DNA from: Escherichia coli
Lineage (GTDB): Bacteria > Pseudomonadota > Gammaproteobacteria > Enterobacterales > Enterobacteriaceae
Direction: 5' to 3' (one strand)
Assembly (NCBI RefSeq): GCF_009931435.1
Contig: NZ_CP043414.1
DNA length: 64,000 nucleotides
Shown piece after piece: positions 2,601 to 59,434 of this stretch. Positions within the stretch are counted from its first letter, which is position 1. Each line of letters opens with the position of its first letter. The notes below the pieces were generated by a model. It worked only from the letters and a program-made list of their open reading frames with translations, was not told where the DNA came from and made no database searches. Position numbers and translations under genes: made by a program.

Positions 2601-3865
2601 CAAGCTTCAGCCGCCAGCATCTCTTTCTTACGTTGGCTAATACGCTTAACCAGCATTACGGAAACCACCGCACCACAGAATGCGAAGCAGGCCATAATGC
2701 CAAACACGATTTTGTAGCCAATAATCCCCGGATTTAAATCCAGAATGTAACCATACAGACTGAAGCAGAACATCGCCGGGGCGTAACCGATAAAGCTACC
2801 CAACGCCATCGCCGCGCCTGTTTTATTTTCAGCAATTTTTGCTTCGCCGATAGGTGCAAAAAATACGGCTCGCTGTGTAAAGACTATCGCGCCAAAGCCT
2901 AATGTACAGGCCATCCCTAAATAGACCGGCATACTTTCGTGCGGCAGCATAATCAACAGTACGAGCGCAGCGGTACTGATGATAAAGGTGTAGCATAGAT
3001 ATTTACTCGGCGATTTCAGGATCTTATCTGAAATCATGCCACCAATCGGTCCACCGATCATTTTCAGACAGTATTGGTTAATGATGCCGTAAGCACCCAC
3101 CAGCGCAACGGGCAGCAGATAGATGTTTTTCAGGAATGGAATGAAGAATGTCAGGCCACAGTAAACCGCGTAAACGAAGAAGACGTTGAAAGCGATAAGC
3201 CAGATGGTTTTATCTCTCAGCACCGAAGTCATACTGGTGTTTTGCGATGCTTCGTCTTCTTTTTTCACCTCCACGGACGGTGCCTCTTCTTTGTCATTGA
3301 GTACAAAGAAAATGATAACGCCCACGGCAATCACAATAAGGGAATAGAACCAGATACCCGCTTTAAAGCCCAACAAGCCACTGCCAAACCAGGTAAATAC
3401 TGCCAACGCAGAAAATGCCACCACAGTATCGACAATTCCACGCCCTGTTTCGAAGAAGCCAAACAAACGACCTTGTTGTTCGCTATTGCCCAGTCGACTT
3501 ACCGACTTGAGCAAGACAGGCCAGTTCATCATGTCGCAGGTAACGCCAAATAGCGCCCAGACAAAGAGGATGCCCCAATACCCCGGCATTGTCGTCAAAT
3601 AAACACCCAGTAATCCCGTCGCAATGAGGGAGAATGACATGGTGTATCTGCGCGGTAGTTTATCGGCAAAATAAATAGACAGAAAAAAGCCCACTGTGGT
3701 GACAAATGAGTTTACCGACATAGCATTACCAATTTGACCATTGGTCAAATGGAAATATTCCTGCATCGGGATATAAAACGCATCTTTCAACGACGGTAAT
3801 TTATAAATTGTACCGCCACACAGTGTTAATAGACTAAATAACGCCCATTTCTTTTTCGTGAGCAT
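2600..3865 (-). CDS. yihN: MFS transporter
   Basis: 421-aa hydrophobic ORF; synteny. Confidence 0.85.
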
Positions 3866-3964
3866 AACATCCCCTAAGCGATTTTGAAAATCACTGTTCT
3901 AAAGGCAATAAGATACCGGCCATTCTTATGGAATGGTTTTTATTAACAGCGGATGAGTTAAAGC

Positions 3965-4948
3965 TTATGAGTGGTTCAGAAGATGGCTTGCCTCTTGTTT
4001 GATTTGTTGTAGTACGTTACGCACATGATTTATCTGATTAATTGCATCTTCTTTTTCTTTACGTAACCGCGCATCCAGTAAATGATTTTCTGGCAGTGGT
4101 GTTTCACTCATCTGGCGATAAGGGATCCACGGATTATCATCTTCGTCTTCAAAGCGGAACGCCGGAGCATAATAATCAACCTCTTCTTCCAGGCCATACG
4201 CTGTCACCTGCGGTTCTTCATCGCCAAGGCAGATAAGGTGTGTTAATAACTCTTTGAATGGCATATCACCCTGACCTGAAATACAGGCTTTATGGCCCAG
4301 GCCACCTTGTTCTTTAACAATCAAGGCATCTTTGATATGGACCTGGGTAATATGTGGTGCCATCGTTTTTAAAGCGTCTATGGGATGCTCATTCGCATTG
4401 ATCATATTCGCAAAATCAAACAGTAAGGAAAGTGATTTCATCTCACTGTCTTTGACCAGCGACACCAGTTCATGGCTTTTTAAATCTTCATGCTGTTCGA
4501 TCGTAAAGGTCAGGCCGCTGTCCTGATACGTTTCCCGAACATAGGCAATATCGTTAGCAATGATCGATAATACGTCGCGTAAATTACCTTCATAACGCGG
4601 ATAAAAACGCACGGACGATGCCCCGGTTTTCAACGCAATGGCGACGGCTTCGTCAATAGATGCCTTATCTGAAGCGCTGGTTTCAATATGAATATCAAGG
4701 TTCAGATGGCGGGCTTTATCGCCAAAGGCAGAGAGTTCTTTATCTGCCATATTGCCCAAAGAAAAACGTTCGCCATCCAGAACATGAATTTTTACGCCTC
4801 GCAGATTATTTTCACTCGCAATATCAAGTAAATCAGCTGGCAATACTCTTTCCAGCCGCATATTTAAATGAAAAGCGTAGGCATGCAAATAAAGAGGAAG
4901 AGTATCGACACGTTGTAGAATCTTTCTTGCGTTATTTATTGTCACCAT
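3965..4948 (-). CDS. yihM: sugar-phosphate isomerase/epimerase (TIM-barrel) family protein
   Basis: ORF track gives 345 aa from 5002; start at MVTINNARK (4948) gives 327 aa and avoids overlap with yihL. Confidence 0.8.
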   Translation of the reverse strand: MVTINNARKILQRVDTLPLYLHAYAFHLNMRLERVLPADLLDIASENNLRGVKIHVLDGERFSLGNMADKELSAFGDKARHLNLDIHIETSASDKASIDEAVAIALKTGASSVRFYPRYEGNLRDVLSIIANDIAYVRETYQDSGLTFTIEQHEDLKSHELVSLVKDSEMKSLSLLFDFANMINANEHPIDALKTMAPHITQVHIKDALIVKEQGGLGHKACISGQGDMPFKELLTHLICLGDEEPQVTAYGLEEEVDYYAPAFRFEDEDDNPWIPYRQMSETPLPENHLLDARLRKEKEDAINQINHVRNVLQQIKQEASHLLNHS

Positions 4949-4955
4949 AAAACAC

Positions 4956-5666
4956 CTACAGATTAATGATGAGATCCACGGCCTCAAATCGCCAATATTC
5001 AATATCTATCTGGACAATATTGCCTTGCTGGTCAGCGCGATGTTTTTCAATTAAGATCGCAGGCATGCCCGCTGAACCGCCAAGAAATTTACTGATATCA
5101 CCCGGCATTCTTACGGGTTTGAAAACCAGTTTTTTTACTACCGTCTCTTTTTGGTAGCATTTTTCCCAGACTGAAGAAAATGAGTGGTTTTCAAGTTGCT
5201 CTATAAAACCTGGGGCAACTTCAGGATTAATATATGTTTCGTGATAGAAAACTTTATGTCCTTCCAGCGCCCCCCAGCCGGTAATGCGATAGAGTTCAGT
5301 TGATGGCGTCACTGCAACCAGTGGCGCGAGCGTCTCGGGAATGTCGCTGGTACGGCTTTTCTCAGTAAAGCCCCAGGAAGGTTCCCGCCCTTGCTCAATT
5401 GCGGCCCGCTGAAAGCTCGCCGACAGCTCCGGACTGTAATTAAATCGCGGCTGAGTCACGAACCACCCTTTACGATCCTTACGGAAAATTTTGGATTCTG
5501 CCTCAAGGTTCAGCAACGCCTGGCGTAACGTCATACGTTTAATGCCCAGCAACTCTCCCAGCTCTCTTTCTGAAGGGAGTTTTCCACCCGGCGTGGTGAT
5601 GCCATCTTTCAACCACCGATCCAGTTTCTCTTTTGCATTTTCTACGGTGGATTGATTCTCCGCCAT
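4956..5666 (-). CDS. yihL: GntR-family transcriptional regulator
   Basis: 236-aa ORF with N-terminal wHTH (ERELGELLGIKRMTLRQAL); synteny. Confidence 0.85.
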   Translation of the reverse strand: MAENQSTVENAKEKLDRWLKDGITTPGGKLPSERELGELLGIKRMTLRQALLNLEAESKIFRKDRKGWFVTQPRFNYSPELSASFQRAAIEQGREPSWGFTEKSRTSDIPETLAPLVAVTPSTELYRITGWGALEGHKVFYHETYINPEVAPGFIEQLENHSFSSVWEKCYQKETVVKKLVFKPVRMPGDISKFLGGSAGMPAILIEKHRADQQGNIVQIDIEYWRFEAVDLIINL

Positions 5667-7706: not shown

Positions 7707-7854
7707 AACTTTGCCTCAGGCATTAGAAATAGCGCGTTATTGTACACGGATTAATCGCACTACAAAACAGGATCACAAACATCCTCCGCAAACAAGTATT
7801 GCAGAGTCCCTTTGTGATCGCTTTCACGGAGCATAAAAAGGGTTATCCAAAGGT

Positions 7855-7995
7855 CATTGCACCAATATGGTGCTTAATGTTTCCATTGAAGCACTATATT
7901 GGTGCAACATTAACATCGTGGTGCAGCCCTTTTGCACGATGGTGCGCATGATAACGCCTTTTAGGGGCAATTTAAAAGTTGGCACAGATTTCGCT
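7855..7995 (+). promoter_or_regulatory. glnA control region: NtrC enhancer sites and sigma-54 promoter glnAp2
   Basis: TGCACCAatatGGTGC-type NtrC half-site pairs at about 7858-7960; TGGCACagatTTCGCT (-24/-12) at about 7980-7995. Confidence 0.8.
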
Positions 7996-9488: not shown

Positions 9489-9549
9489 TAGTTGAAGTTG
9501 TACTACCCGGTGCAAAGAAGGCCGGGATTTAGTTGCCGTGGAAACTTTC

Positions 9550-9580
9550 AGCCCATCTCTGCATGGGCTTTTTTCTCCGT
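9550..9580 (+). terminator. rho-independent terminator after glnA
   Basis: agcccatctctgcatgggct hairpin followed by a T6 run. Confidence 0.7.
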
Positions 9581-10723: not shown

Positions 10724-12133
10724 ATGCAACGAGGGATAGTCTGGGTAGTCGATGACGATAGTTCCATCCGTTGGGTGCTTGAACGTGCGCTCGCTGGAGC
10801 AGGTTTAACCTGTACGACGTTTGAGAACGGCGCGGAAGTGCTGGAGGCGCTGGCGAGCAAAACACCGGATGTACTGCTTTCAGATATCCGTATGCCGGGA
10901 ATGGACGGGCTTGCGCTGCTCAAGCAGATTAAACAGCGCCATCCGATGCTTCCGGTCATCATTATGACCGCACATTCCGATCTGGATGCTGCCGTCAGCG
11001 CCTATCAACAAGGGGCGTTTGATTATCTGCCCAAACCGTTTGATATCGACGAAGCCGTGGCGCTGGTTGAGCGCGCCATCAGCCATTATCAGGAACAGCA
11101 GCAACCGCGTAATGTTCAGCTTAACGGCCCGACGACCGATATCATCGGCGAAGCGCCAGCCATGCAGGACGTGTTCCGGATTATCGGTCGGCTTTCACGT
11201 TCTTCTATTAGCGTGCTGATTAACGGCGAATCCGGCACCGGTAAAGAACTGGTCGCTCATGCCCTGCATCGCCACAGTCCTCGAGCCAAAGCGCCGTTTA
11301 TCGCGCTGAATATGGCGGCTATCCCGAAGGATTTGATCGAATCAGAACTGTTCGGTCACGAGAAAGGCGCGTTTACCGGCGCGAATACCATTCGTCAGGG
11401 GCGTTTTGAACAGGCCGATGGCGGCACGTTATTCCTCGATGAAATTGGCGATATGCCGCTCGATGTACAGACGCGTTTGCTGCGCGTGCTGGCAGACGGT
11501 CAGTTTTATCGCGTTGGCGGCTATGCGCCGGTGAAAGTGGATGTGCGGATTATCGCTGCGACCCATCAGAATCTCGAACAGCGGGTACAGGAAGGCAAGT
11601 TCCGTGAGGATTTGTTCCACCGCCTGAACGTTATCCGCGTTCATCTGCCGCCGCTGCGTGAGCGTCGGGAAGATATTCCCCGTCTGGCACGCCATTTTTT
11701 ACAGGTTGCCGCGCGCGAACTGGGCGTAGAAGCGAAGTTGCTGCATCCGGAAACCGAAGCCGCGCTGACGCGTCTGGCATGGCCGGGTAACGTGCGCCAG
11801 CTGGAAAACACCTGCCGTTGGTTAACGGTGATGGCCGCCGGGCAGGAAGTGTTGATTCAGGATTTGCCTGGCGAACTGTTTGAATCAACGGTTGCGGAGA
11901 GTACTCCGCAAATGCAACCGGACAGTTGGGCAACGCTGTTAGCGCAGTGGGCAGACAGAGCGCTGCGTTCCGGTCATCAAAATTTGCTTTCCGAAGCGCA
12001 GCCTGAGCTTGAGCGGACGTTACTGACGACCGCGTTGCGACATACGCAGGGGCATAAACAGGAAGCTGCGCGGCTACTTGGCTGGGGGCGTAACACCCTG
12101 ACGCGGAAGTTAAAAGAGCTGGGGATGGAGTGA
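10724..12133 (+). CDS. glnG: sigma-54-dependent response regulator NtrC
   Basis: Start chosen at the ATG giving [12 protein letters not shown] (the ORF-track start at 10664 overlaps glnL); receiver domain, [11 protein letters not shown]+ motif, C-terminal HTH. Confidence 0.97.
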
Positions 12134-12244
12134 TTCACAGCTTGTGTGTAAAGATTGATTATTGAGCGCAAATTGCTGGTATTTTGCGCTTTACTGTTCC
12201 GATAAGTTCAGTATGATCTTGCCCGGAAAACGGGGAGAGTCATT

Positions 12245-12355
12245 ATGCTGGAATCAATAATTAATCTGGTATCGAGTGGCGCAGTTGACAGCCACACACC
12301 GCAAACTGCCGTTGCTGCCGTGCTGTGTGCTGCGATGATTGGGCTGTTTAGCTGA
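12245..12355 (+). CDS. yshB: small membrane protein, 36 aa (below the ORF-track length cutoff)
   Basis: ATG at 12245 preceded by ggggagag RBS; translation MLESIINLVSSGAVDSHTPQTAVAAVLCAAMIGLFS; position between glnG and hemN as in K-12. Confidence 0.7.
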   Translation: MLESIINLVSSGAVDSHTPQTAVAAVLCAAMIGLFS

Positions 12356-12361
12356 AGCTCG

Positions 12362-12520
12362 TTGTTTATGCCGGATGCGGAGAAAGTCGTAGGCCTGATA
12401 AGACGCGACCAGCGTCGCATCAGGCATCATGCTCAGATGCCGGATGCCGGATGCCGGATGCCGGATGCCGGATGCCGGATGCAGCGTAAACGCCTTATCC
12501 GGCCTACAAAAGCAATAATT
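12362..12520. repeat. REP/BIME cluster containing a 6-copy tandem heptamer (atgccgg)
   Basis: REP consensus units plus atgccgg x6 at 12437-12478. Confidence 0.75.
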
Positions 12521-12618
12521 TCAACAGGTTTTCTTAACCAGCGCATCAGGCAATCTTGTTCTCAGCACATTGATGGCGCTTTCGTTTTCTACTTTGTAAA
12601 CGAAGCGCCATTCACCAT

Positions 12619-13992
12619 TTAAATCACTCGTGAGAACTGCTGCATCCGCGCTTTCTGGCGCAGATAGGTATCAAAGCACATGCAAATGTTGCGGATCAGC
12701 AGGCGACCTTTCGCCGTTACCTGAATCCCCTTCTCATCCACATCCACCAGCCCATCTTTTGCTAACGGGGCAAGCAGCTTGAGATCTTCTGCAAAGTAGT
12801 CAGCGAAGTGCAAATCCCACTGTTGCTCAATGGGGGCATAATCCAGACGGAAGTTGCAGATGAGCGACTTAATCACATCGCGACGAATACAGTCATCACG
12901 CGTTAGCGCAATACCACGCCACAGCGCATTGCCTTGTTCATCCACTTGCTGATAGTACTGCTTCAACTCTTTCTGATTCTGCGCGTAGCAGTCGCCAATC
13001 ATGCTAATGGCTGAAACGCCCATCCCCAGCAGATCGGTATCGCCCTGAGTGGTGTAGCCCTGGAAGTTACGATGAAGCACGCCTTCACGTTGGGCCACCG
13101 CCAGCTCATCATCCGGGCGAGCAAAGTGATCCATACCGATAAACTGATAGCCCGATTGTGTCAGGAAGGCGATGGTTTCCTGCAGGATATCGAGTTTTTG
13201 CTGCGGACTCGGCAGGTCAGCATCTTTGATTTTACGCTGAGCAGCAAAAATGGTCGGCAAATGCGCGTAGTTAAAGACACTCAGGCGATCGGGGTTAAGT
13301 TCCGCCACGCGTTTCAGGGTAAAGGCGAAACTCTCCGGCGTCTGTTTCGGCAGGCCGTAAATCAGGTCGATGTTGGTGGAAGTAAAGCCAATCTCACGCG
13401 CATGGTTAAGCAGTGCAAAGATGAACTCTTCATCCTGCTCGCGGTTAACCAGACGTTGCACTTCTTTGTTGAAGTCCTGCACGCCCATGCTCAGGCGATT
13501 AAAGCCTTCGGCGCGTAAATGATCGAGTACATCCAGTTCGATTTCCCGCGGATCGACTTCGATCGAAATCTCCGCATCGGCATTGAACTGGAAGTTTTCG
13601 CGCAGCAACTTCATCAGTCGGCTGATTTGCGCTTTGTTCAGATACGTCGGCGTACCACCGCCCCAGTGCAATTGGCTGACGTGACGCCCGGCGAACAGCG
13701 GTGCACGATGGACGATTTCTTGCTCCAGCGCGTCCAGATACTGATCGGCCTTGTGCTGCTGGCGAGTAACAATCTTATTGCAACCGCAGAAGTAACAAAG
13801 CTTATGGCAGAACGGGATATGTACGTAGAGAGATAATGGACGCTCAGGATAGCGCGCCACGGCTTGTAAAAACGCCTGTTCGCCGAAGTCTTCTGAAAAC
13901 TCCAGCGCGGTCGGGTACGAGGTGTATCGTGGCCCGGAATAGTTATATTTCTGGATCAGGGCCAGATCCCAGTCGATTTGCTGTACAGACAT
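12619..13992 (-). CDS. hemN: oxygen-independent coproporphyrinogen III oxidase (radical SAM)
   Basis: CxxxCxxC radical-SAM motif (HIPFCHKLCYFCGCN); start taken at MSVQQIDW (457 aa). Confidence 0.95.
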   Translation of the reverse strand: MSVQQIDWDLALIQKYNYSGPRYTSYPTALEFSEDFGEQAFLQAVARYPERPLSLYVHIPFCHKLCYFCGCNKIVTRQQHKADQYLDALEQEIVHRAPLFAGRHVSQLHWGGGTPTYLNKAQISRLMKLLRENFQFNADAEISIEVDPREIELDVLDHLRAEGFNRLSMGVQDFNKEVQRLVNREQDEEFIFALLNHAREIGFTSTNIDLIYGLPKQTPESFAFTLKRVAELNPDRLSVFNYAHLPTIFAAQRKIKDADLPSPQQKLDILQETIAFLTQSGYQFIGMDHFARPDDELAVAQREGVLHRNFQGYTTQGDTDLLGMGVSAISMIGDCYAQNQKELKQYYQQVDEQGNALWRGIALTRDDCIRRDVIKSLICNFRLDYAPIEQQWDLHFADYFAEDLKLLAPLAKDGLVDVDEKGIQVTAKGRLLIRNICMCFDTYLRQKARMQQFSRVI

Positions 13993-14180
13993 GCTCACTC
14001 CTTCCGATGGCGTCTCTGGCGGCTACGGCGTACCGGCGAATGCCCGTTTCGGGTCATCAGCCGGTTGCGCAGCCACTTTTGTCGCCGCGACAACCGCTGT
14101 AGTTTAACGAATAACCACACCAGATAACATATAACCGGAAGGGTTATCAGCAGAACGGGAAGGCCCACGGCGGCAATCCG

Positions 14181-15998: not shown

Positions 15999-16107
15999 TA
16001 AAAAACGCCCCAGTCATTACTGACTGGGGCGGCTAAAATATTCAGCCAAATCCGATTACGTGAAGTAAAAGGTCTGAAAGATAGAACATCTTACCTCTGT
16101 ACCCTAC
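15999..16107 (-). ncRNA. spf: Spot 42 small RNA
   Basis: Minus strand reads GTAGGGTACAGAGGTAAGATGTTCTATCTTTCAGACCTTTTACTTCACGTAATCGGATTTGGCTGAATATTTTAGCCGCCCCAGTCAGTAATGACTGGGGCGTTTTTTA, including the terminator hairpin. Confidence 0.92.
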
Positions 16108-16254
16108 GCGACTAACTTTACTCTTTTTTGTTCAGTTCAGAAAGCATTTTTTGTAATTTTTTTTCAGTTGTTGCATAGGAATTTCTAATAGCCATCACAA
16201 AACGTGACAGCTTATGTTGCTTACTTACGAAAAAAGGGCATGTTCAGGCGAATC

Positions 16255-48404: not shown

Positions 48405-48444
48405 TTATCCCACAATATGAGACCTAGTTTATATTGTGGGATAA
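48405..48444. promoter_or_regulatory. perfect 14-bp inverted repeat, candidate operator
   Basis: ttatcccacaatat-N12-atattgtgggataa, 60-100 bp upstream of the IclR-family gene and about 120 bp upstream of divergent rmuC; no flanking U-run on either strand. Confidence 0.45.
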
Positions 48445-48503
48445 ATCACCTTTTCCCCACGTCATTATGTGGAACACTTCAGCAATATCATCAGGAGAAA
48501 CGT

Positions 48504-49271
48504 ATGGCAGATACCTCTTCAACCACCGCTGGCGCACAAACGTTATTACGCGGGCTCGCGGTTCTTAATGCTGTTTATAACGGCTGCCATGACCTGAAAA
48601 GTATCGGCGAGTTCACCGGCACGACCCGGAGCACAACCCATCGTTTAGTCACCGTTCTGGTGGAACAACGCTACCTGCGCCACGTCCCAACGCAGGGCTA
48701 CCAACTGGGCGCCAAACTGATCGAATTCGGTGCCAGAGCGCTGGAAAGCACCTCGCTGTACGAAGTTGCGCTGCCCGTTTTGCAACGCCTTGCCCGTTAC
48801 ACCCTGGACACCGTGCATCTGGGGATCGTTGAAGGCGACGAAGTGCTGTATCTGGAGAAGATCAACAGCCAGCGCGGGCTGGAAATGCGCTCACGCCCAG
48901 GCCATCGCATGCCACTGGCAATCACCGGCATCGGCAAGGCATTGATCCTCAACCGAACAGAAGAAGAGTGGCGCACGCTGTTTAAGACCTGTGGTGATGA
49001 AACAAAACTGGGCGCATTTATTCAGAACATGCGTCGTTATGCCGCGAGTGGTTTTGCTTTTGATCTGGAAGAGAACGAGCCGACTATCCGTTGCGTTGCA
49101 GCGCCGGTTTACAACGCCCGGGATGAAATTGTGGCGGCTATTTCTGTCGCCAGTACCACTACGTATATGTCACTGGCGCGTCTGGAAGAACTGGCACCTT
49201 ACGTCAAATCCTGTGCAGAAGAGATATCCGCTGAACTGGGCTGGGGTAAGCACGTCCGCAAAAATAAATAA
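48504..49271 (+). CDS. IclR-family transcriptional regulator
   Basis: Start chosen at MADTSSTTAGAQTLLRGLAVLNAV (aggag RBS); N-terminal wHTH plus C-terminal effector-domain pattern typical of IclR regulators. Confidence 0.8.
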   Translation: MADTSSTTAGAQTLLRGLAVLNAVYNGCHDLKSIGEFTGTTRSTTHRLVTVLVEQRYLRHVPTQGYQLGAKLIEFGARALESTSLYEVALPVLQRLARYTLDTVHLGIVEGDEVLYLEKINSQRGLEMRSRPGHRMPLAITGIGKALILNRTEEEWRTLFKTCGDETKLGAFIQNMRRYAASGFAFDLEENEPTIRCVAAPVYNARDEIVAAISVASTTTYMSLARLEELAPYVKSCAEEISAELGWGKHVRKNK

Positions 49272-49294
49272 ACCATGACTAAAGGAAACGGCTA

Positions 49295-50299
49295 ATGTCG
49301 GGAAACACCTCATTTATTGCCCTGGACTGGGGAACGTCATCGCTTCGGGCATGGCGTTTTGGCGATTCACCAAATCCACAAGAAAAACGTGAATTCCCGT
49401 GGGGGATCATGAAATTACCCTCCCAGGCAGCAACACGTGAGGACGCTTTCCACGATACGTTTTTACGTGTCTGCGGCGACTGGCTGGCACAATCCCCATG
49501 CCCGGTTCTGGCTTGCGGCATGATCGGCAGTGCGCAAGGGTGGCAACCCGCAGCTTATTTACCTTGCCCGGTCACTCTCGAGGGTCTGGCAAAGCAGTTG
49601 ACGCCTGTTATCCACCAGCAGCAGACAATGCTGCATATTATTCCTGGCGTGATTAAAGAAGGTGAAATGCCCGAAGTAATGCGTGGTGAAGAGACACAAA
49701 TCTTCGGTGCTATCTCGATGGAACCGGCCCTGCAAAACGCGATCCGCCAGGGTATGCCTGTGCTGATTGGCTTACCTGGCACACATGCGAAATGGGCGGT
49801 AGTTGAAAACAACACCATTACCGATTTCCGAACCTTTATGACTGGCGAGTTATTTGATGTTTTATCCCGCCATTCGATTCTCGGTGCCACCATGCGTTCG
49901 GGAGATGAACCGCACTGGGATGCCTTCACCCATGGGCTGACAGCAGCACAAGAGCATCATCAGACCGGATTATTATCGACGCTGTTTTCGACCCGTTCGC
50001 GCCTGCTGACCAGTAATCTTACGCCGTCCTCACAGGGGGATTACCTTTCAGGATTACTGATAGGCCATGAATTATGCGGTCTGGCATCCAGTTTGCTACG
50101 TGATTTACCCGCCACAACACCGATCGCCTTAATCGGTAGCGCCACTCTGAACAGCCGCTATTCACAAGCATTCAGCCACGTTTTTCCCGACAGACAGCTA
50201 CACGCCATTCCTAATGCCACTGAACAGGGGTTATGGCGAATCGCCCACGTTGCCGGGCTACTCTCCACCAACGCCAGGGAATGTACCCATGCCATTTAA
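49295..50299 (+). CDS. 2-dehydro-3-deoxygalactonokinase-like sugar-acid kinase (DgoK family)
   Basis: 334 aa; N-terminal IALDWGTSSLRAW and VMRGEETQIFGA / TGELFD..LS.HS.LGA / LSGLLIG motifs align with E. coli DgoK as I recall it. Confidence 0.8.
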   Translation: MSGNTSFIALDWGTSSLRAWRFGDSPNPQEKREFPWGIMKLPSQAATREDAFHDTFLRVCGDWLAQSPCPVLACGMIGSAQGWQPAAYLPCPVTLEGLAKQLTPVIHQQQTMLHIIPGVIKEGEMPEVMRGEETQIFGAISMEPALQNAIRQGMPVLIGLPGTHAKWAVVENNTITDFRTFMTGELFDVLSRHSILGATMRSGDEPHWDAFTHGLTAAQEHHQTGLLSTLFSTRSRLLTSNLTPSSQGDYLSGLLIGHELCGLASSLLRDLPATTPIALIGSATLNSRYSQAFSHVFPDRQLHAIPNATEQGLWRIAHVAGLLSTNARECTHAI

Positions 50300-50918
50300 T
50301 ACGCTTTTGCAAAAAACCGGGTTAGTCGCCATTTTACGCGGCGTGAAACCGGATGAGATTGTCGCCATCGGTGAAAAGCTGTATGCCGCTGGATTTCGCC
50401 TGATTGAGATTCCCATGAACTCGCCGGAGCCGTTGCAAAGTATCAGTTTACTGCGCGACGCCCTGCCTAAGGACTGCCTGGTCGGAGCCGGAACGGTGCT
50501 TTCGGTGGAGCAAGTCGTCGCGGTTAAAGAGGCTGGAGGCCAGATTATCGTGATGCCGCATTGCGATACTGCGGTGATCCGTCGTGCCCGTGCGCTGGGT
50601 ATGTATTGTGCGCCTGGCGTCGCTACGCCCACCGAAGCTTTTGCTGCCATTGAACATGGCGCCAATGCCATCAAGCTGTTCCCGGCTGAACAAATTACGC
50701 CTGAAGTCACCAAAGCCTGGCGTGCGGTTATTCCACAATCCGTTCCGATGTTACCGGTTGGCGGTATCACTCCAGACACAATGGCGCGTTATCTGAGCCA
50801 CGGCGCAAACGGCTTTGGCCTCGGTTCTGCGCTATATCGCCCCGGCATGACGCCAGAGCAAGTCTATGAAAATGCAGTACTGTTTATGAACGCATGGAAC
50901 AATTTAAATAGCAAATAA
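50289..50918 (+). CDS. 2-dehydro-3-deoxy-6-phosphogalactonate (KDPGal/KDPG) aldolase-like
   Basis: Start at MPFNTLLQKTGLVAILRG (209 aa), overlapping the kinase gene by 11 bp; AILRG...EIP.NSP...GAGTVL...GG(I/V)TP motifs of the Eda/DgoA family. Confidence 0.8.
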   Translation: MPFNTLLQKTGLVAILRGVKPDEIVAIGEKLYAAGFRLIEIPMNSPEPLQSISLLRDALPKDCLVGAGTVLSVEQVVAVKEAGGQIIVMPHCDTAVIRRARALGMYCAPGVATPTEAFAAIEHGANAIKLFPAEQITPEVTKAWRAVIPQSVPMLPVGGITPDTMARYLSHGANGFGLGSALYRPGMTPEQVYENAVLFMNAWNNLNSK

Positions 50919-50942
50919 CTGATAAATAAGGATATAAAAGCA

Positions 50943-51917
50943 ATGATAAAACATCTTACCTTACCGAAAAAAATGGCTGCAATGGTACTTCTTGCCGGCG
51001 CTGCCCTCAGCACTGCGCCTGTACAGGCGGCCTCCTGGCCAACCAAACAAATCGAGTTAGTCGTACCCTACGCGGCCGGAGGCGGTACGGACCTGGTTGC
51101 CCGAGCCTTTGCTGATGCCGCCAAAAACCATTTACCCGTCAGCATCGGGGTTATCAATAAACCTGGCGGTGGCGGCGCTATCGGCCTGAGTGAAATCGCC
51201 GCTGCCCGCCCTAACGGTTACAAAATGGGTTTAGGCACGGTTGAACTGACCACCCTTCCCAGCCTCGGAATGGTGCGTTTTAAAACCAGCGACTTTAAAC
51301 CCATTGCCCGTCTGAATGCGGATCCGGCGGCTATCACCGTCCGTGCCGATGCGCCGTGGAATAGCTATGAAGAATTTATGACTTACGCCAAAGCGAATCC
51401 CGGAAAAGTACGCATTGGTAACTCAGGCACCGGAGCAATCTGGCATCTGGCGGCAGCTGCACTGGAAGACAAAACGGGCGTGAAGTTTTCTCATGTCCCG
51501 TATGACGGCGCAGCCCCTGCCATTACAGGCCTGTTAGGCGGGCATATTGAAGCGGTTTCCGTAAGCCCAGGTGAAGTTATCAATCATGTGAAAGGCGGCA
51601 AGCTGAAGACACTGGTAGTGATGGCGGATGAACGTATGAAAACCATGCCTGACGTCCCGACGTTAAAAGAGAAAGGCGTTGATCTCTCCATCGGCACCTG
51701 GCGCGGCCTGATTGTGTCGCAAAAAACGCCGCAGGATGTGGTGGATGTGCTGGCAAAGGCAGCAAAAGAGACGGCTGAAGAGCCTGCATTCCAGGATGCA
51801 CTGCAAAAGTTGAATCTCAACTATGCATGGCTTGATGGTGCCAGCTTCCAGACCCAAATCAACGAGCAGGAAAAGTACTTTGACGAGCTTCTGACTCGCC
51901 TGGGCCTGAAAAAATAA
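50943..51917 (+). CDS. tctC: tripartite tricarboxylate transporter, periplasmic substrate-binding protein (TctC/Bug family)
   Basis: 324 aa; signal peptide then ASWPTKQIELVVPYAAGGGTDLVAR, typical Bug-family N-terminus. Confidence 0.8.
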   Translation: MIKHLTLPKKMAAMVLLAGAALSTAPVQAASWPTKQIELVVPYAAGGGTDLVARAFADAAKNHLPVSIGVINKPGGGGAIGLSEIAAARPNGYKMGLGTVELTTLPSLGMVRFKTSDFKPIARLNADPAAITVRADAPWNSYEEFMTYAKANPGKVRIGNSGTGAIWHLAAAALEDKTGVKFSHVPYDGAAPAITGLLGGHIEAVSVSPGEVINHVKGGKLKTLVVMADERMKTMPDVPTLKEKGVDLSIGTWRGLIVSQKTPQDVVDVLAKAAKETAEEPAFQDALQKLNLNYAWLDGASFQTQINEQEKYFDELLTRLGLKK

Positions 51918-51933
51918 TCCCGAGGTACGGTCG

Positions 51934-52440
51934 ATGAACACAAAACAGTCTGTTGCTCAACTCGCCGTACCGCACCGCAAGCGCCTTTCATCCACTGTGG
52001 TGGTGGCGCTGTTACTTTGTGTGGTTGCTGGCGCGGTGATAATTAATGCCGCTGATTTTCCAGCAACTGCCATTGAAACGGATCCCGGTGCAAGTGCCTT
52101 CCCTACTTTCTATGCCTGCGCTCTGATTGTGCTCGCTGTCTTACTGGTGATACGCGATCTTTTGCTGGCAAAACCAGTCCCTTGCGCCAACGCACAGGAA
52201 AAACCGGCATTAAGGAAAACGGCAACAGGAATTGCGGCAACCGCGTTTTATATTGTGGCGATGAGCTACTGCGGTTATCTCGTTACTACTCCTGTTTTCC
52301 TCATCGTCATTATGACGTTGATGGGCTACAGGCGATGGGTACTCACTCCGGGTATTGCGCTGCTGTTAACGGCAATCCTCTGGTTGCTGTTTGTCGAAGC
52401 GTTACAGGTGCCATTGCCTGTCGGCACATTTTTCGAATAA
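51934..52440 (+). CDS. tctB: tripartite tricarboxylate transporter small membrane subunit (TctB-like)
   Basis: 168-aa 4-TM protein between tctC-like and tctA-like genes. Confidence 0.7.
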   Translation: MNTKQSVAQLAVPHRKRLSSTVVVALLLCVVAGAVIINAADFPATAIETDPGASAFPTFYACALIVLAVLLVIRDLLLAKPVPCANAQEKPALRKTATGIAATAFYIVAMSYCGYLVTTPVFLIVIMTLMGYRRWVLTPGIALLLTAILWLLFVEALQVPLPVGTFFE

Positions 52441-52452
52441 CAGGGGCCTGCA

Positions 52453-53943
52453 ATGTTTGAAAGTGAACTTTTAACTCAGGGGTTTTCGACATTACTCAGT
52501 AATCCTCAGGCGCTGCTGTTTGCCACGTTTGGAGTGATGCTGGGTATTATGATTGGCGCTCTGCCTGGCCTGACAGCGACCATGGGTGTGGCGATTTTGC
52601 TGCCTTTCACCTACGGCATGGAGCCTGTTTCTGGCTTGTTGATGATTTGCGGTGTCTTTTTTGGTGGTGTGTATGGTGGTTCTATCACCGCAATTTTGCT
52701 CAAAATTCCCGGTACACCTGCCGCCGCTGCCACCGCCATTGACGGTTATGAGTTAACGAAGCAGGGAAAAGCCGGGCTGGCATTAAGTGCCGCCACGTTC
52801 TCTTCTTTTAGCGGTGGAACGCTCAGCATTATCGTATTGATGTTTCTCTCTCCGGTCCTTGCTAGTTGGGCGTTGAAATTTAGTGCCTCGGAGTCCTTCG
52901 CCCTGGCAACCTTCGGACTGAGCATTATTGCCAGTATTTCCGGTGAGTCGCTGATTAAAGGGCTGATCGCCGGGATTGGCGGATTAATGATCGCAACGAT
53001 AGGCCTCGATCCGATGGGCGGTTTTCCACGCTTTACGGGCGGGTTTGTGGAACTGATGAATGTGCCATTTATCCCGGTGATGATTGGTCTGTTTGCTGCT
53101 TCAGAAGCGTTCCGTTCTATGGAACAAAATCAGCATATTCGTCAGAGCGCGAACGTGGCTATCGGCAGTCTGTTACTGCCCTGGCAAACGCTACGCCGCA
53201 TCGCATTAACCATTTTGCGCTCATCAGGATTAGGGGTTTTTATCGGCATGATCCCCGGTGCGGGGGCAGATATTGCAGCTTTTGTTGCCTATAACGAAAC
53301 TCGTCGTTTCAGTAAGACGCCTGAAAACTTTGGTAAGGGTGAGATTAAGGCGGTGGCCTCCTGTGAGGCAGGCGCGAATGGCTGCACCGGTGGCGCATTG
53401 TTACCTATGCTGACGTTGGGGATCCCAGGCGATGCGGTAACTGCCATCATGCTGGGCGCGTTAACGTTACAAGGGATGCAGCCAGGCCCACTGATGTTTA
53501 CCGACCACGGCGATATGGTTTATACGTTATTTGTCGGCATGATCTTCTGTTACTTCATGCTGCTAGTTCTTGGACTGCTCTCTTTGAAAGTCATCGGTAA
53601 CGTGGTGAAAATTCCCGGCAATATTCTCACACCGATGATCCTCGCACTTTGTGTGGTCGGGACTTATGCGTTGAACAATAGCCTGTTTGATGTTGGCATT
53701 ATGCTGATTGCAGGCGTGGTGGGCTATTTCATGCAAAAAGGGGGATATCCGGCATCACCCGTAGTGCTGGCATTGATTATGGGGCCAATGGCGGAAAGTA
53801 ATTTTCGCCGTGCGCTGTCGCTTTCAGGGGGGTCACTCGACTTCCTGTATACCCGACCGATAACCCTGGCATTGCTGACACTGGCAGCCTTTACGCTACT
53901 GACGCCAATAATACGCAAAATTATGCGCTTACGGCGTCAGTAA
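52453..53943 (+). CDS. tctA: tripartite tricarboxylate transporter large permease subunit (TctA-like)
   Basis: 496-aa polytopic membrane protein with duplicated GxPGxxA / IPGxPA-type motifs. Confidence 0.85.
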   Translation: MFESELLTQGFSTLLSNPQALLFATFGVMLGIMIGALPGLTATMGVAILLPFTYGMEPVSGLLMICGVFFGGVYGGSITAILLKIPGTPAAAATAIDGYELTKQGKAGLALSAATFSSFSGGTLSIIVLMFLSPVLASWALKFSASESFALATFGLSIIASISGESLIKGLIAGIGGLMIATIGLDPMGGFPRFTGGFVELMNVPFIPVMIGLFAASEAFRSMEQNQHIRQSANVAIGSLLLPWQTLRRIALTILRSSGLGVFIGMIPGAGADIAAFVAYNETRRFSKTPENFGKGEIKAVASCEAGANGCTGGALLPMLTLGIPGDAVTAIMLGALTLQGMQPGPLMFTDHGDMVYTLFVGMIFCYFMLLVLGLLSLKVIGNVVKIPGNILTPMILALCVVGTYALNNSLFDVGIMLIAGVVGYFMQKGGYPASPVVLALIMGPMAESNFRRALSLSGGSLDFLYTRPITLALLTLAAFTLLTPIIRKIMRLRRQ

Positions 53944-56245: not shown

Positions 56246-56914
56246 ATGACGCAATCCATTTTTCAGGCTCAACCCTTTGAATTACCTTTTGATCCGCGCA
56301 CAACTGCACTGGTCATGATCGACATGCAGCGTGACTTTGTCGAAGCAGGGGGCTTCGGTGAGGCACTGGGCAATGATGTTTCACTGGTACGCACGGCTAT
56401 CGCACCATGTACAGAGGTGCTGGCAGCCGCACGTCAAAAAGGAATTATGGTTATTCATACTCGTGAAGGCCATCGTGCAGACTTAAGCGACTGCCCGCCA
56501 GCCAAACTGACGCGCGGCGGAAAAACCTTTATTGGTGAACCAGGACCGATGGGACGCATTCTGGTCAGAGGTGAAGCGGGTCATGACATCATTCCTGAAC
56601 TGTACCCAGTGACAGGCGAACCGGTGATTGATAAGCCCGGTAAAGGCGCTTTTTATCAAACCGACTTACATCTGATTTTGCAAAACCACGGTATCAAGAC
56701 GCTGATAGTTTGTGGTGTAACAACCGAAGTTTGCGTAACCACCACCGTGCGCGAAGCAAATGACCGTGGCTATGAATGCATTATCCCGGAAGATTGTGTC
56801 GGCTCATATTTCCCGGAATTCCAGAAATATGCCCTCGAGATGATCAAAGCACAAGGTGCCATTTTCGGTTGGGTGAGTGATTCCAAAGCCATTATTGCAG
56901 GTCTGGAAGGCTAA
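56246..56914 (+). CDS. isochorismatase-family cysteine hydrolase (RutB/BiuH-like amidohydrolase)
   Basis: 222 aa; D-K-C triad context (ALVMIDMQRDF, DKPGKGAF, VCGVTTEVC) and a C-terminal FGWVSDS block resembling RutB as I recall it. Confidence 0.75.
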   Translation: MTQSIFQAQPFELPFDPRTTALVMIDMQRDFVEAGGFGEALGNDVSLVRTAIAPCTEVLAAARQKGIMVIHTREGHRADLSDCPPAKLTRGGKTFIGEPGPMGRILVRGEAGHDIIPELYPVTGEPVIDKPGKGAFYQTDLHLILQNHGIKTLIVCGVTTEVCVTTTVREANDRGYECIIPEDCVGSYFPEFQKYALEMIKAQGAIFGWVSDSKAIIAGLEG

Positions 56915-56919
56915 CGCCG

Positions 56920-57780
56920 ATGGTACAGGTGACGCTTTGCGCATCATCGTTGGGATATCTTTTCCCGCAAAATGAAACGCAAGATTTACGTCTGCATAGT
57001 GCTTTTAAACATGCGGTAAATCTGTATTCAGAAGCGGGAACATTCATCACTCTGTTGTGTGCGCAAACGTATCTGAATCTCCCTGATGCCGCCAGAGTCA
57101 ACCTGCCTGAGAATTGGGACTGGCGAAGAGAGATTGCCCATTCAGATCCCATTCAGTTAACCCCAGGCTTGTTACAAACACCTCGCTTTTGCGTGGTGCT
57201 TCATAACACAACACTTTGGCAACCGCCATTTGTGGGGGGAATGCTGACACTTGAGGCATTCCCTTTGGTTTTCCAGCACTACCCAACGATGGCATCGCAA
57301 CGGCTTTTATTTTGTCTGGAGCATAACGTTCAAAGCACATTGCACCTGCCGGATAGTCTCACGCACCAGGGATTAGCGATTATGGAACATCCAGATGCAC
57401 TGGAACGCCAGGTGCCACAACTGATCGGCTTTGGTAAAGGCTTAACGCCCGATGGAGATGACTATTTGTTGGGCTATCTGGCAGCGCTCTGGTTATGGCA
57501 ACTCCCTGCAACACTTGCCGATCATCAATACCGGTTGCAGCAGGCAATTGATCAACATGCGCACAACACCACGGATATCAGTCGTCATTATCTGGAGCGT
57601 GCGCTTCAGGGGCATTTTTCAGAACCGATTTGCCAGTTACTCGCACAACTGGTTGGGGGCGCATCGGAAATGACAATCGCATCCTGTGCAGAACAGGTCA
57701 TGCAATTTGGCGCAACGTCAGGAGTAGATTGCCTTGCAGGAATGCTGCATGGCTTTCGAACCCTGAACACCATGAATTGA
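56920..57780 (+). CDS. DUF2877-like protein (YlbF/YahE-like putative carbamoyltransferase subunit)
   Basis: 286 aa, 6 bp after the hydrolase gene; GFGKGLTPDGDDYLLG motif; assignment to DUF2877 is from memory of the LTPxGDD signature and the conserved position next to FdrA-like/DUF1116 genes. Confidence 0.55.
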   Translation: MVQVTLCASSLGYLFPQNETQDLRLHSAFKHAVNLYSEAGTFITLLCAQTYLNLPDAARVNLPENWDWRREIAHSDPIQLTPGLLQTPRFCVVLHNTTLWQPPFVGGMLTLEAFPLVFQHYPTMASQRLLFCLEHNVQSTLHLPDSLTHQGLAIMEHPDALERQVPQLIGFGKGLTPDGDDYLLGYLAALWLWQLPATLADHQYRLQQAIDQHAHNTTDISRHYLERALQGHFSEPICQLLAQLVGGASEMTIASCAEQVMQFGATSGVDCLAGMLHGFRTLNTMN

Positions 57781-57874
57781 TTTCAACCTTTTCTCCCGTA
57801 GCCCATTTATGGCGCTACACGGGGATGCTTTGCCCGAATTTTGCTATCGGGCGGAATAAAACAGGCGTAACAGC

Positions 57875-59434
57875 ATGAAAGTTAAATATAAAGTTTTCAG
57901 CAATCTTTATCAGGACTCGGTTTCTCTGATGCAGATTTCCGCGCAAATCAGTAAGTTGCCCGGTATTCAACAGGCCTCGGTCGTCATGGGAACACCCAAT
58001 AATCTCGAACAATTGCGCGATGCGGGTCTGGGTAACGAAATCAACGCCAGTCCCAATGATTTAGTGATTGCAGTCATGGGTGAAGAAGATATTTGCAATG
58101 AAGCACTGATACTGGCCCAGCAACGTCTGACCAGCAAACCCGATGATGAAACGGATAGTGGCATTAAAACACCGGAAAATGTCAGCCTGGAAATGGCACT
58201 GGAAGCCGACACCGAAGCCAACCTGGCACTCATTTCTGTACCGGGAGACTACGCCGCCGCCGAAGCAATTAAAGCGTTAAACCTCGGAATGAACGTGATG
58301 ATGTTCAGCGATAACGTCAGTATCGGGCAGGAAAAATCCATCAAAACACTTGCCCGAGAACGTCAGCGCATCGTAATGGGACCTGATTGTGGAACCGCCA
58401 TTGTTAACGGCATTCCGTTAGGCTTCGCTAATGTGGTGAAACGCGGAGCAATTGGTGTTATTGGCGCGTCAGGCACCGGGCTACAGGAAGTGACTTGCCG
58501 AATCGACCAGCTCGGAGCGGGTATTTCTCAGGCGTTGGGAACAGGCGGGCATGATCTCAGTGAAGAGATTGGTGGAATATCGATGCTCTTCGCTTTAGAT
58601 GCGCTGGCGCAAGACGATGAAACTCGCGTGATTGTGCTTATTTCAAAACCGCCTTCACCGATCGTTGCCCGGGCTATTCTGGAGCGCGCCGAGGCTTGTG
58701 GAAAACCCGTGGTGGTGAATTTCCTCGGTGCGAATCCGCATGATCTGGCACGTCCCAATATCACCGCTGCCGCCACACTTGCCAGCGCCGCAAATATCGC
58801 CGTGGCAGTACTGAATGATCAGCCACTTCCGACTGTCGAGACCGAGATTTCCTGCGACGATCTCACAATGTTACAAAACGCCTGCCAGCGTCTGCCAGCC
58901 CATCGCCAGGCGATACGCGGTGTTTTCGCCGGAGGAACCTTCTGTTACGAAGCGCAACTTATCTGCCAGCAAAAGGGATTCAGCGCCGCCTCCAATACGC
59001 CAGTTGCGGGTAATCGTACTCTGGCAAATATCTGGCAAAGCAAAGGTCACACGCTGATCGATATGGGCGACGATGATTTCACCCGTGGCAAACCGCATCC
59101 AATGATCGACCCGACTCTGCGCAATCAACGTCTGCTCAACGAACTCAACGACTCACACACTGCCGTCGTGTTATTCGACCTGGTACTTGGTTATGGCGCT
59201 TCCGCTACGCCTGCCAGCGAATTACTGGACCAACTTTCACACATCGACATGAATAACGCACCGTTGCTGATTGCGCACGTTTGCGGAACGGAAGCTGATC
59301 CGCAAATACGCAGTCAGCAGATAAGCGCACTACAAAATGCGGGCATCATCATTGCCAGCAGCAATGCACAGGCGGCGCTATGGGCCAGCGCCGTTGCGCA
59401 GACTCAGTTGCAGAAAAAGGGGCTAAACGCATGA
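57875..59434 (+). CDS. FdrA-like protein (CoA-binding/succinyl-CoA-synthetase-like fold)
   Basis: 519 aa; N-terminus YQDSVSLMQISAQISKLPGIQQASVVMGTPNN aligns with E. coli FdrA; internal NVMMFSDNV, MGPDCGT and VIGASGTG motifs. Confidence 0.8.
   Translation: MKVKYKVFSNLYQDSVSLMQISAQISKLPGIQQASVVMGTPNNLEQLRDAGLGNEINASPNDLVIAVMGEEDICNEALILAQQRLTSKPDDETDSGIKTPENVSLEMALEADTEANLALISVPGDYAAAEAIKALNLGMNVMMFSDNVSIGQEKSIKTLARERQRIVMGPDCGTAIVNGIPLGFANVVKRGAIGVIGASGTGLQEVTCRIDQLGAGISQALGTGGHDLSEEIGGISMLFALDALAQDDETRVIVLISKPPSPIVARAILERAEACGKPVVVNFLGANPHDLARPNITAAATLASAANIAVAVLNDQPLPTVETEISCDDLTMLQNACQRLPAHRQAIRGVFAGGTFCYEAQLICQQKGFSAASNTPVAGNRTLANIWQSKGHTLIDMGDDDFTRGKPHPMIDPTLRNQRLLNELNDSHTAVVLFDLVLGYGASATPASELLDQLSHIDMNNAPLLIAHVCGTEADPQIRSQQISALQNAGIIIASSNAQAALWASAVAQTQLQKKGLNA

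What the first reader, a model, noticed from the sequence alone, without database searches (positions are those of the whole stretch)
12245..12355. 36-aa membrane protein gene missed by the ORF track
A short ORF with a good RBS encodes MLESIINLVSSGAVDSHTPQTAVAAVLCAAMIGLFS, consistent with the small protein YshB at this position in K-12. It shows that short coding genes in this window fall below the six-frame length cutoff.
Basis: partly seen in the sequence, partly recalled or inferred. Interest (0 to 1): 0.2.

Follow-up and report, generated by a model that had tools for sequence, protein, structure and literature searches.

The report
Known small protein gene yshB
The short reading frame is real and is the already catalogued E. 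coli gene yshB, a 36-residue, probably membrane-embedded protein between glnG and hemN, so the finding is correct but ordinary.

Summary
The ORF at 12245-12355 (+) exists exactly as described. It has an ATG start, a TGA stop, the stated 36-aa peptide and a strong Shine-Dalgarno (GGGGAGAG, 7-nt spacing). The peptide is identical to K-12 YshB (b4686, UniProt YSHB_ECOLI); the DNA differs from K-12 by two synonymous changes. It lies in the same place, between glnG and convergent hemN. It passes the NCBIfam equivalog model NF033841 (72 bits against a cut-off of 34), and RefSeq annotates it as "YshB family small membrane protein".

An ORF with a good SD is not decisive on its own: the window holds 322 ORFs of 36-59 aa, and 7 have an SD at least as strong. 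Comparison across genera (Enterobacter, Erwiniaceae, a fourth enterobacterial lineage) settles it:
- Synteny is kept.
- Only this frame is stop-free in all lineages.
- Substitutions concentrate at codon position 3, and dN/dS is 0.07-0.3.
- The promoter hexamers, SD and ATG are conserved.

The literature already reports translation (ribosome profiling), detection of the native peptide by top-down mass spectrometry, cleavage by the intramembrane protease RseP, and a virulence role in Salmonella.

Verdict: confirmed, already known, low interest. The molecular mechanism is still unknown. The "membrane" label is plausible but rests on a short, Lys/Arg-free hydrophobic helix.

The parts
12245..12355 (+). 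yshB coding sequence: 36 codons plus a TGA stop. Peptide MLESIINLVSSGAVDSHTPQTAVAAVLCAAMIGLFS.
   Evidence: sequence and ORF. (NF033841, 72.1 bits against cut-off 34). (identical peptide to K-12 b4686, 2 synonymous differences). (exact match to YSHB_ECOLI). (dN/dS 0.07-0.32, excess of third-position changes, the only frame open in all 6 lineages).
12232..12239 (+). Shine-Dalgarno sequence GGGGAGAG; the GGAG core ends 7 nt before the ATG.
   Evidence: (-8.1 kcal/mol with the anti-SD, top 1.4% of ATGs in the window). (a GGGG/GGGA core is conserved in the Enterobacter and Erwiniaceae loci).
12190..12217 (+). yshB's own sigma-70-type promoter: -35 TTTACT (12190-12195), 16-nt spacer, -10 TATGAT (12212-12217). 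The predicted transcription start is near 12224.
   Evidence: 9 of 12 consensus matches. (TTTAC and GTATnAT are invariant across all seven aligned loci while the surrounding intergenic DNA diverges). [quoted passage not shown] The start site itself is inferred.
12164..12191 (+). Possible glnG terminator hairpin (GAGCGCAAA / UUUGCGCUU, 9 bp, 10-nt loop). Its U-rich 3' side overlaps the yshB -35. Weak and inferred.
   Evidence: the hairpin appears in both the MFE and centroid structures; the region's z-score of -0.31 is unremarkable. The terminator scan did not report it.
12392..12504 (.). REP/BIME palindromic elements between the convergent yshB and hemN. They probably form the 3' end or stabiliser of the yshB mRNA. 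They contain a GATGCCG heptamer array at 12436-12482.
   Evidence: REP-derived naRNA4 model, 56.4 bits, below the gathering score of 59.5. (fold z = -3.19). (heptamer array, 35 bp longer than in K-12). A role at the 3' end is inferred.
10724..12133 (+). glnG (ntrC), the upstream neighbour on the same strand. Context only.
   Evidence: ORF ending at 12133. The start at 10724 is set by the 469-aa length of the RefSeq and K-12 annotations.
12619..13992 (-). hemN, the convergent downstream neighbour. Context only; it means yshB has no co-directional downstream gene.
   Evidence: ORF 12619..13998. The length is set to the annotated 457 aa.

Best explanation
This is yshB, an independently transcribed and translated 36-codon gene between glnG and hemN. 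Shown: it has its own conserved sigma-70-type promoter, a strong SD and an ATG. The peptide is under purifying selection across Enterobacteriaceae and Erwiniaceae. It belongs to the curated YshB family. Inferred for the product: a helix-break-helix peptide with an amphipathic N-terminal helix (residues 2-15), an invariant H-T-P-Q hinge, and an Ala-rich hydrophobic C-terminal helix (about 19-35) that inserts into the inner membrane with the N-terminus in the cytoplasm. Inferred for the mechanism, at about 0.5 probability: like other enterobacterial small membrane proteins (MgrB, AcrZ, MgtS, CydX), it works by binding and modulating a larger membrane protein through the conserved hinge and the small-residue face of the helix. 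Its level would be set by synthesis in slow-growth or stationary conditions and by RseP-dependent intramembrane proteolysis. The partner is unknown. In Salmonella the homologue supports intracellular replication and virulence.
For: Identity: identical peptide and position to K-12 b4686; exact match to YSHB_ECOLI; NF033841 equivalog at 72.1 bits against 34; RefSeq annotation as yshB, and 5425 of 5426 complete E. coli genomes match a 541-bp query spanning the locus. Coding: the order glnA-glnL-glnG-yshB-hemN is kept in Enterobacter-like, Erwinia tracheiphila and other Erwiniaceae loci. Codon-position differences are 6/1/14 (p=0.002) and 4/2/18 (p=7.5e-5), and dN/dS is 0.07-0.32 with synonymous sites near saturation. 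It is the only one of six frames free of stops in all lineages. Expression signals: the SD is in the top 1.4%, and the -35, -10, SD and ATG are conserved. Literature: own promoter (PMC9731577); ribosome-profiling-based abundance estimate (PMC7549839 quoting Li et al. 2014); native peptide seen by top-down MS (PMC12529367); class I RseP substrate in vivo and in vitro (PMC10470546); Salmonella virulence role (Bomjan et al. 2019, as cited). Anatomy: AlphaFold2 gives helices 2-15 and 19-35 at pLDDT 72; helix 1 has muH 0.39, reached by 3.8% of shuffles; helix 2 is uniformly hydrophobic; M1, E3, H17, P19, Q20, A22, C28 and A29 are invariant.
Against: Nothing argues against the gene being real. Against the mechanistic part: the hydrophobic stretch is only about 14-17 residues and ends at the C-terminus, which is short for a membrane span. 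No family member has any Lys or Arg, so the positive-inside rule gives no topology. His-tagged YshB could not be detected after induction in one study (PMC7549839). The top-down MS paper lists it as a 'small protein' apart from its 'small membrane proteins'. RseP cleavage was shown only with N-terminally tagged fusions. No solved structure contains a YshB-like chain, so no partner is known. I could not read the two primary papers (Hemm 2008, Bomjan 2019).
Confidence: 0.9

Rival explanations
1. YshB is a real translated peptide but not a true transmembrane protein. It would be a soluble or peripherally membrane-bound helical hairpin that acts on a cytoplasmic or membrane-surface partner.
For: The hydrophobic segment is short, with the best 15-residue window at 21-35 and a 19-residue mean Kyte-Doolittle value of only 1.53. 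The N-terminal helix is amphipathic. There is no Lys or Arg anywhere in the family. The top-down MS paper separates it from the 'small membrane proteins'.
Against: TMHMM or TOPCONS predicts a single membrane span for every protein in the RseP screen set, which included YshB (PMC10470546). RseP, an intramembrane protease, cleaves tagged YshB in vivo at chromosomal enzyme level and in vitro. NCBI curators name the family a small membrane protein. Helix 2 has no polar face (muH 0.04).
Confidence: 0.2
2. The ORF is a chance reading frame within a non-coding transcript, such as a small RNA downstream of ntrBC like Pseudomonas NrsZ, or a glnG 3'UTR.
For: 322 ORFs of 36-59 aa occur in the window by chance, 7 with an equally strong SD. 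An sRNA occupies the corresponding position in Pseudomonas (PMC9731577).
Against: The substitution pattern is codon-periodic, with dN/dS 0.07-0.32 and a frame kept open across genera. The predicted fold of the transcript is no more stable than shuffles (z = +0.82). Rfam matches nothing over the ORF. The peptide has been detected by mass spectrometry.
Confidence: 0.01
3. The real gene is one of the longer antisense ORFs that overlap it: 12208..12420 (-), 70 aa, or 12254..12430 (-), 58 aa.
For: Both are longer than yshB and start with ATG.
Against: The antisense frames carry stops within the yshB span in the Erwiniaceae loci and the fourth lineage. The longest antisense open stretch drops to 22-35 aa in L007 and L012. 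Much of both ORFs runs through REP elements. No promoter-like site was found on the minus strand. Neither ORF is annotated in RefSeq.
Confidence: 0.01
4. yshB is a type I toxin or a regulatory leader peptide rather than a stand-alone functional small protein.
For: It is small and hydrophobic. It was recovered in the same RseP screen as the Hok toxins.
Against: No promoter-like site exists on the opposite strand for an antitoxin RNA. The next gene, hemN, is convergent, so there is nothing downstream to attenuate. It lacks the charged residues typical of pore-forming toxins. It is estimated to be abundant in normal cells, and in Salmonella it promotes fitness.
Confidence: 0.03

Closest known systems
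YshB of E. coli K-12 (b4686, UniProt YSHB_ECOLI; NCBIfam NF033841 small_YshB; Pfam PF28018)
   Same: The 36-aa peptide is identical, and the position between glnG and hemN is the same. The promoter and SD region are the same apart from one base change upstream of the -35. The window sequence scores 72.1 bits against the curated cut-off of 34.
   Different: There are two synonymous Ala codon changes. The window also has a 35-bp heptamer expansion in the REP element downstream of the stop, which is absent from K-12.
Salmonella enterica YshB (reported to promote intracellular replication and virulence; Bomjan et al. 2019)
   Same: It is 92% identical (P0018: V23L, M31L, I32V), with the same family and length.
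   Different: The virulence phenotype was shown in Salmonella only. No phenotype for E. coli yshB turned up in the papers I could read. The primary paper is not held, so the details come from citing papers.
Characterised enterobacterial small membrane proteins that modulate larger partners (MgrB-PhoQ, CydX-cytochrome bd, and, from my own knowledge, AcrZ-AcrB and MgtS-MgtA)
   Same: YshB shares their size class, single predicted hydrophobic helix, independent small transcription unit and identification by the same kind of screen. MgrB and CydX were tested alongside YshB as RseP substrates.
   Different: There is no sequence similarity and no known partner. No solved complex contains YshB. YshB has no basic residue at all, and its hydrophobic helix is at the extreme C-terminus. 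The resemblance concerns how it may work, not family membership.

Membership tests
NCBIfam NF033841 small_YshB (equivalog) | Whole-protein HMM score at or above the curated cut-off (34 bits), with a full-length match | tested here: met
   72.1 bits, E = 2.4e-20, residues 1-36 aligned to profile positions 1-40 of 40.
YshB family | Conserved core motif H-T-P-Q-T-A ... C-A, and a length of 36-37 aa | tested here: met
   H17, P19, Q20, A22, C28 and A29 are invariant in 16 members from Escherichia, Salmonella, Enterobacter and Erwiniaceae. The window peptide carries all of them.
YshB family | Genomic position immediately downstream of glnLG on the same strand, before convergent hemN | tested here: met
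   for the window, a RefSeq strain and K-12. for the divergent loci. In Erwinia tracheiphila an extra SBP_bac_5 gene lies between yshB and hemN, but yshB stays next to glnG.
Pfam PF28018 (YshB) | Match to the Pfam model | tested here: inconclusive
   The local Pfam copy returned no family for the window peptide or for any of 16 members, even at E up to 10. Precomputed annotations nevertheless list PF28018:YshB on the homologues. The model is most likely newer than the local copy.
Genuine protein-coding gene (general) | Purifying selection on the amino-acid sequence and a frame kept open across species | tested here: met
   dN/dS 0.07-0.32, third-position excess (p = 0.002 and 7.5e-5), and the only frame without stops in 6 lineages.
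Genuine protein-coding gene (general) | Direct evidence of translation or of the peptide | not testable with these tools
   Literature only: top-down MS detection (PMC12529367) and a ribosome-profiling-based copy estimate (PMC7549839 quoting Li et al. 2014).
Bacterial small membrane proteins (single-pass, 50 aa or fewer) | One hydrophobic helix long enough to span the bilayer | tested here: inconclusive
   The hydrophobic helix covers about residues 19/22-35, which is 14-17 residues. The best 15-residue Kyte-Doolittle mean is 2.37, but the 19-residue mean is only 1.53. TMHMM or TOPCONS predicts a single span for every protein in the screen set that included YshB.
Bacterial small membrane proteins (single-pass, 50 aa or fewer) | Experimental membrane localisation | not testable with these tools
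   Support is indirect: tagged YshB is cleaved by the intramembrane protease RseP in vivo and in vitro (PMC10470546). Fontaine et al. 2011 is not held.
Type I toxin-antitoxin toxins (Hok, Ldr, Ibs, TisB type) | An overlapping or adjacent antisense RNA gene with its own promoter | tested here: not met
   no promoter-like site on the minus strand in 11900-12800; no Rfam antitoxin RNA.
Regulatory leader peptides / upstream ORFs | A co-directional downstream gene whose expression the peptide's translation controls | tested here: not met
   the next gene, hemN, is convergent, and REP elements lie in between.

The most novel reading that the evidence does not exclude
The most novel reading still open is that YshB is not a conventional single-pass membrane protein. 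It would instead be a Lys/Arg-free, tail-anchored or dual-topology helical hairpin whose invariant His-Thr-Pro-Gln hinge and Cys28 form a specific binding site (metal, cofactor or protein) on an unidentified partner. That partner might be connected to its conserved neighbours, which act in nitrogen regulation (glnLG) or anaerobic haem synthesis (hemN). A smaller possibility is that the strain-specific heptamer expansion in the downstream REP hairpin changes yshB (or hemN) mRNA stability.
Probability: 0.1. Interest if true: 0.4.

Novelty: already known. Interest (0 to 1): 0.06.

Why it matters
The finding matters little as a discovery. yshB has been catalogued in K-12 since 2008, has curated NCBIfam and Pfam families, is called routinely by PGAP, and has published expression, proteolysis and Salmonella virulence data. 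Its value is as a positive control for the scan: a tool-less reader correctly recognised a 36-codon gene from sequence alone. It also shows that the six-frame ORF track needs a short-ORF layer, because spfP (15 aa) in the same window falls below the cut-off as well. The open biological question is what YshB binds and how it works. This window adds only the observations on its Lys/Arg-free composition and conserved hinge.

Tried and rejected
I used the exhaustive phmmer search instead. It returned only 15 representatives, many of them frameshifted or over-extended calls from assemblies. I kept only clean full-length members for the alignment.
- The local Pfam copy gave no match, even at E up to 10, although PF28018:YshB appears in precomputed annotations. 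I treated this as a library-version gap, not as evidence against membership.
- PADLOC and a PDB sequence search with the family profile found nothing.
- The primary papers are not held: Hemm 2008, Hemm 2010, Fontaine 2011 and Bomjan 2019. What I say about them comes from citing papers.
- I rejected the structured-sRNA idea because the fold z-score is +0.82.
- I rejected the antisense ORFs because they are not conserved.
- I rejected the type I toxin and leader-peptide readings on locus anatomy.
- The consensus scan found no intrinsic terminator after yshB. REP elements occupy that position in E. coli, whereas the Erwiniaceae loci show a GC-rich hairpin followed by T residues there (alignment).
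- I did not run the expensive genome contigs or metagenome scans. Cluster names already gave the taxonomic spread needed for a known gene.
- I did not run a fold search, because structural matches to a 36-residue two-helix model would be meaningless.

Full report
**Observation.** The sequence at 12245-12355 (+) reads ATG ... The ATG is the first start codon after the preceding in-frame stop, so the ORF cannot be extended upstream. GGGGAGAG lies at 12232-12239, with the GGAG core 7 nt from the ATG. Its predicted duplex with the 16S anti-SD is -8.1 kcal/mol, stronger than 98.6% of the 2169 ATGs in the window. A sigma-70-like promoter lies just upstream: TTTACT, 16 nt, TATGAT, at 12190-12217. The ORF alone is not remarkable. 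The window contains 538 ORFs of 36 aa or more, 322 of them 36-59 aa, and 7 of those have an SD at least as strong. Several of the 7 lie inside RNA genes, by comparison with the Rfam coordinates.

**Identity.** The window is an E. coli chromosome segment, about 96-98% identical to K-12 MG1655 and collinear with it from yihP through glnALG, hemN, polA and rrnA to udp. A 541-bp query spanning the locus matched 5425 of 5426 complete E. coli genomes. RefSeq annotates the ORF as "yshB: YshB family small membrane protein", between glnG and convergent hemN. K-12 carries it as b4686 / YP_002791260.1 at the same position. The window differs from K-12 within the ORF at two positions, both synonymous Ala codons, so the peptide is identical. 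An exact-sequence look-up returns UniProt YSHB_ECOLI, seen on more than 1000 contigs. The peptide scores 72.1 bits against the NCBIfam equivalog model NF033841 small_YshB, whose cut-off is 34, over its full length. The local Pfam copy has no matching model. Precomputed annotations nevertheless list PF28018:YshB on the homologues.

**Independent evidence that it is coding.** An exhaustive phmmer search of 1.84 billion representatives found 15 relatives. Cluster names place them in Escherichia, Shigella, Salmonella, Enterobacter, Erwinia tracheiphila and other Erwiniaceae. I fetched DNA for four divergent lineages. All keep the order glnA-glnL-glnG-yshB-hemN(-). In Erwinia tracheiphila an extra solute-binding-protein gene sits between yshB and hemN, and yshB stays next to glnG.

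In a nucleotide alignment of the locus, the surrounding intergenic DNA diverges. The -35 (TTTAC), the -10 (GTATnAT), a GGGG/GGGA SD core and the ATG stay conserved. Within the ORF, differences fall mainly on codon position 3:
- window versus the Enterobacter-type locus: 6/1/14 at positions 1/2/3 (p = 0.002);
- Enterobacter-type versus the fourth lineage: 4/2/18 (p = 7.5e-5).

Pairwise dN/dS is 0.07-0.32, with synonymous sites near or at saturation. The yshB frame is the only one of six without a stop in all six lineages. The two longer antisense ORFs in the window, 12208..12420 and 12254..12430, are interrupted elsewhere. The predicted RNA fold of the transcript is no more stable than shuffled controls (z = +0.82), and no Rfam family covers the ORF. 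The chance-ORF, sRNA and antisense-gene alternatives are therefore rejected.

**What the literature adds.**
- PMC9731577 states that yshB (Hemm et al. [quoted passage not shown] 2019).
- PMC7549839 quotes a ribosome-profiling-based estimate (Li et al. 2014) of more than 11,000 YshB copies. It also reports that His-tagged YshB could not be detected after induction.
- PMC12529367 detected native YshB by top-down proteomics and notes that it has no tryptic sites.
- PMC10470546 classifies YshB as a class I substrate of the intramembrane protease RseP. It was cleaved as HA-MBP and 3xFLAG fusions in vivo, including at chromosomal RseP level, and as a purified substrate in vitro, with additional periplasmic cleavage by unknown proteases.

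I could not read the primary Hemm 2008 and Bomjan 2019 papers because they are not held.

**Anatomy and likely mechanism.** A 16-member alignment shows that M1, E3, H17, P19, Q20, A22, C28 and A29 are invariant. AlphaFold2 on that alignment predicts two helices, 2-15 and 19-35, broken at S-H-T, with moderate confidence (pLDDT 72). Helix 1 is amphipathic (muH 0.39, reached by 3.8% of shuffles). Helix 2 is uniformly hydrophobic and Ala-rich. Two features are unusual for a single-pass membrane protein. The hydrophobic run is only about 14-17 residues and ends at the C-terminus. No member of the family has a single Lys or Arg, so the positive-inside rule gives no orientation.

My best account is as follows.
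- Shown: an independently transcribed, translated and conserved small protein.
- Inferred from RseP's usual N-in/C-out substrates and the hydrophobic helix: it is tail-anchored in the inner membrane with a cytoplasmic N-terminus.
- Inferred by analogy with MgrB, CydX, AcrZ and MgtS, at about 0.5 probability: it modulates a larger membrane protein through the conserved hinge and small-residue helix face, and is turned over by RseP.

A peripheral or soluble helical hairpin remains a live rival, at about 0.2. No solved structure contains a YshB-like chain, so the partner is unknown. Type I toxin and leader-peptide readings fail on locus anatomy: there is no antisense promoter-like site, and the downstream gene is convergent.

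**Transcript ends.** A 9-bp hairpin at 12164-12191 after the glnG stop may terminate glnG transcription, and it overlaps the yshB -35. This is weak: the consensus scan did not report it, and the region's fold z-score is unremarkable. No canonical intrinsic terminator follows yshB in E. coli. Strongly structured REP/BIME elements fill the gap to hemN instead (z = -3.19; sub-threshold naRNA4 match). The Erwiniaceae loci have a GC-rich hairpin followed by T residues at that position.

**Verdict.** The feature is the already known gene yshB, so novelty is nil and interest is low. It serves as a positive control for the first-stage reader and as a reminder that the ORF track misses annotated short genes. 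spfP (15 aa) at 16042-16089 (-), inside Spot 42, is a second example in this window.

Noticed in passing
window 12436-12482: There is a perfect tandem array of the heptamer GATGCCG, 6.7 copies, inside a REP hairpin arm just downstream of yshB. K-12 and the closest RefSeq strain have only about 1.7 copies, so the window is 35 bp longer. The best matches among 5426 complete E. coli genomes all span 170 nt for the 205-nt query, which means none of them carries the full array. It could be real slipped-strand expansion or an assembly artefact.
   Followed up: partly
window 12392-12504 (-): A REP/BIME element matches the Rfam naRNA4 (CssrE) model at 56.4 bits, just below the gathering score of 59.5. 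The heptamer array appears as a 39-nt insertion in the first hairpin. The region folds far better than shuffles (z = -3.19).
   Followed up: partly
window 16042-16089 (-), inside Spot 42 at 15999-16117 (-): The 15-codon gene spfP (K-12 b4837, the dual-function Spot 42 small protein) is present with 100% nucleotide identity. It is a second annotated coding gene in this window that falls below any usual ORF length cut-off.
   Followed up: yes
window 48417-53943 (+): This segment is absent from K-12 and lies between the rmuC and udp homologues. It holds an IclR-family regulator, 2-keto-3-deoxy-galactonate kinase, a KDPG/KHG aldolase and a TctC/TctB/TctA tripartite tricarboxylate transporter. It looks like an ordinary accessory sugar-acid catabolic island.
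   Followed up: partly
window 56246-63459 (+): In a second segment with no K-12 match, after the ysgA homologue, Pfam was run on four ORFs (56246-60855). They encode an isochorismatase-family protein, AllH-like and AllG-like oxamate carbamoyltransferase subunits and a CoA-ligase (FdrA-like) protein. Three further ORFs up to 63459 (60761-63459) were not scanned. The K-12 metE and metR homologues did not align within the window.
   Followed up: partly
YshB family alignment A2 (window 12245-12355 and homologues): None of the 16 aligned YshB proteins, from Escherichia to Erwiniaceae, contains any Lys or Arg. The only charged residues are 1-2 acidic ones, plus the invariant His17. This is unusual for a predicted single-pass membrane protein and leaves its topology undetermined.
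   Followed up: partly
L012 3001-3156; protein P0026 (Salmonella enterica serovar Uzaramo, WP_260796838.1): Stop-loss variants of yshB exist, at 51 aa and 43 aa. The L012 contig also has a fragmented glnG, so that one is probably an assembly error. The Salmonella variant appears on three contigs and may be real.
   Followed up: no
L007-L010 (Erwinia tracheiphila) 3795-5423 (-): An SBP_bac_5 solute-binding-protein gene is inserted between yshB and hemN, and yshB stays directly after glnG. The conserved linkage is therefore to glnLG rather than to hemN.
   Followed up: no
window 9500-9550 and 7788-7895 (-): The alignment to K-12 breaks for about 50 nt in the glnA 3'UTR / GlnZ sRNA region, which the GlnZ paper describes as variable between species. 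Rfam also reports an ES222 sRNA match (133 bits) at 7788-7895 on the minus strand, upstream of glnA.
   Followed up: no
window 12164-12191 (+): A 9-bp hairpin (GAGCGCAAA / UUUGCGCUU) follows the glnG stop, and its U-rich 3' side overlaps the yshB -35 hexamer. It may be a glnG terminator sharing sequence with the yshB promoter. The consensus terminator scan did not report it.
   Followed up: partly
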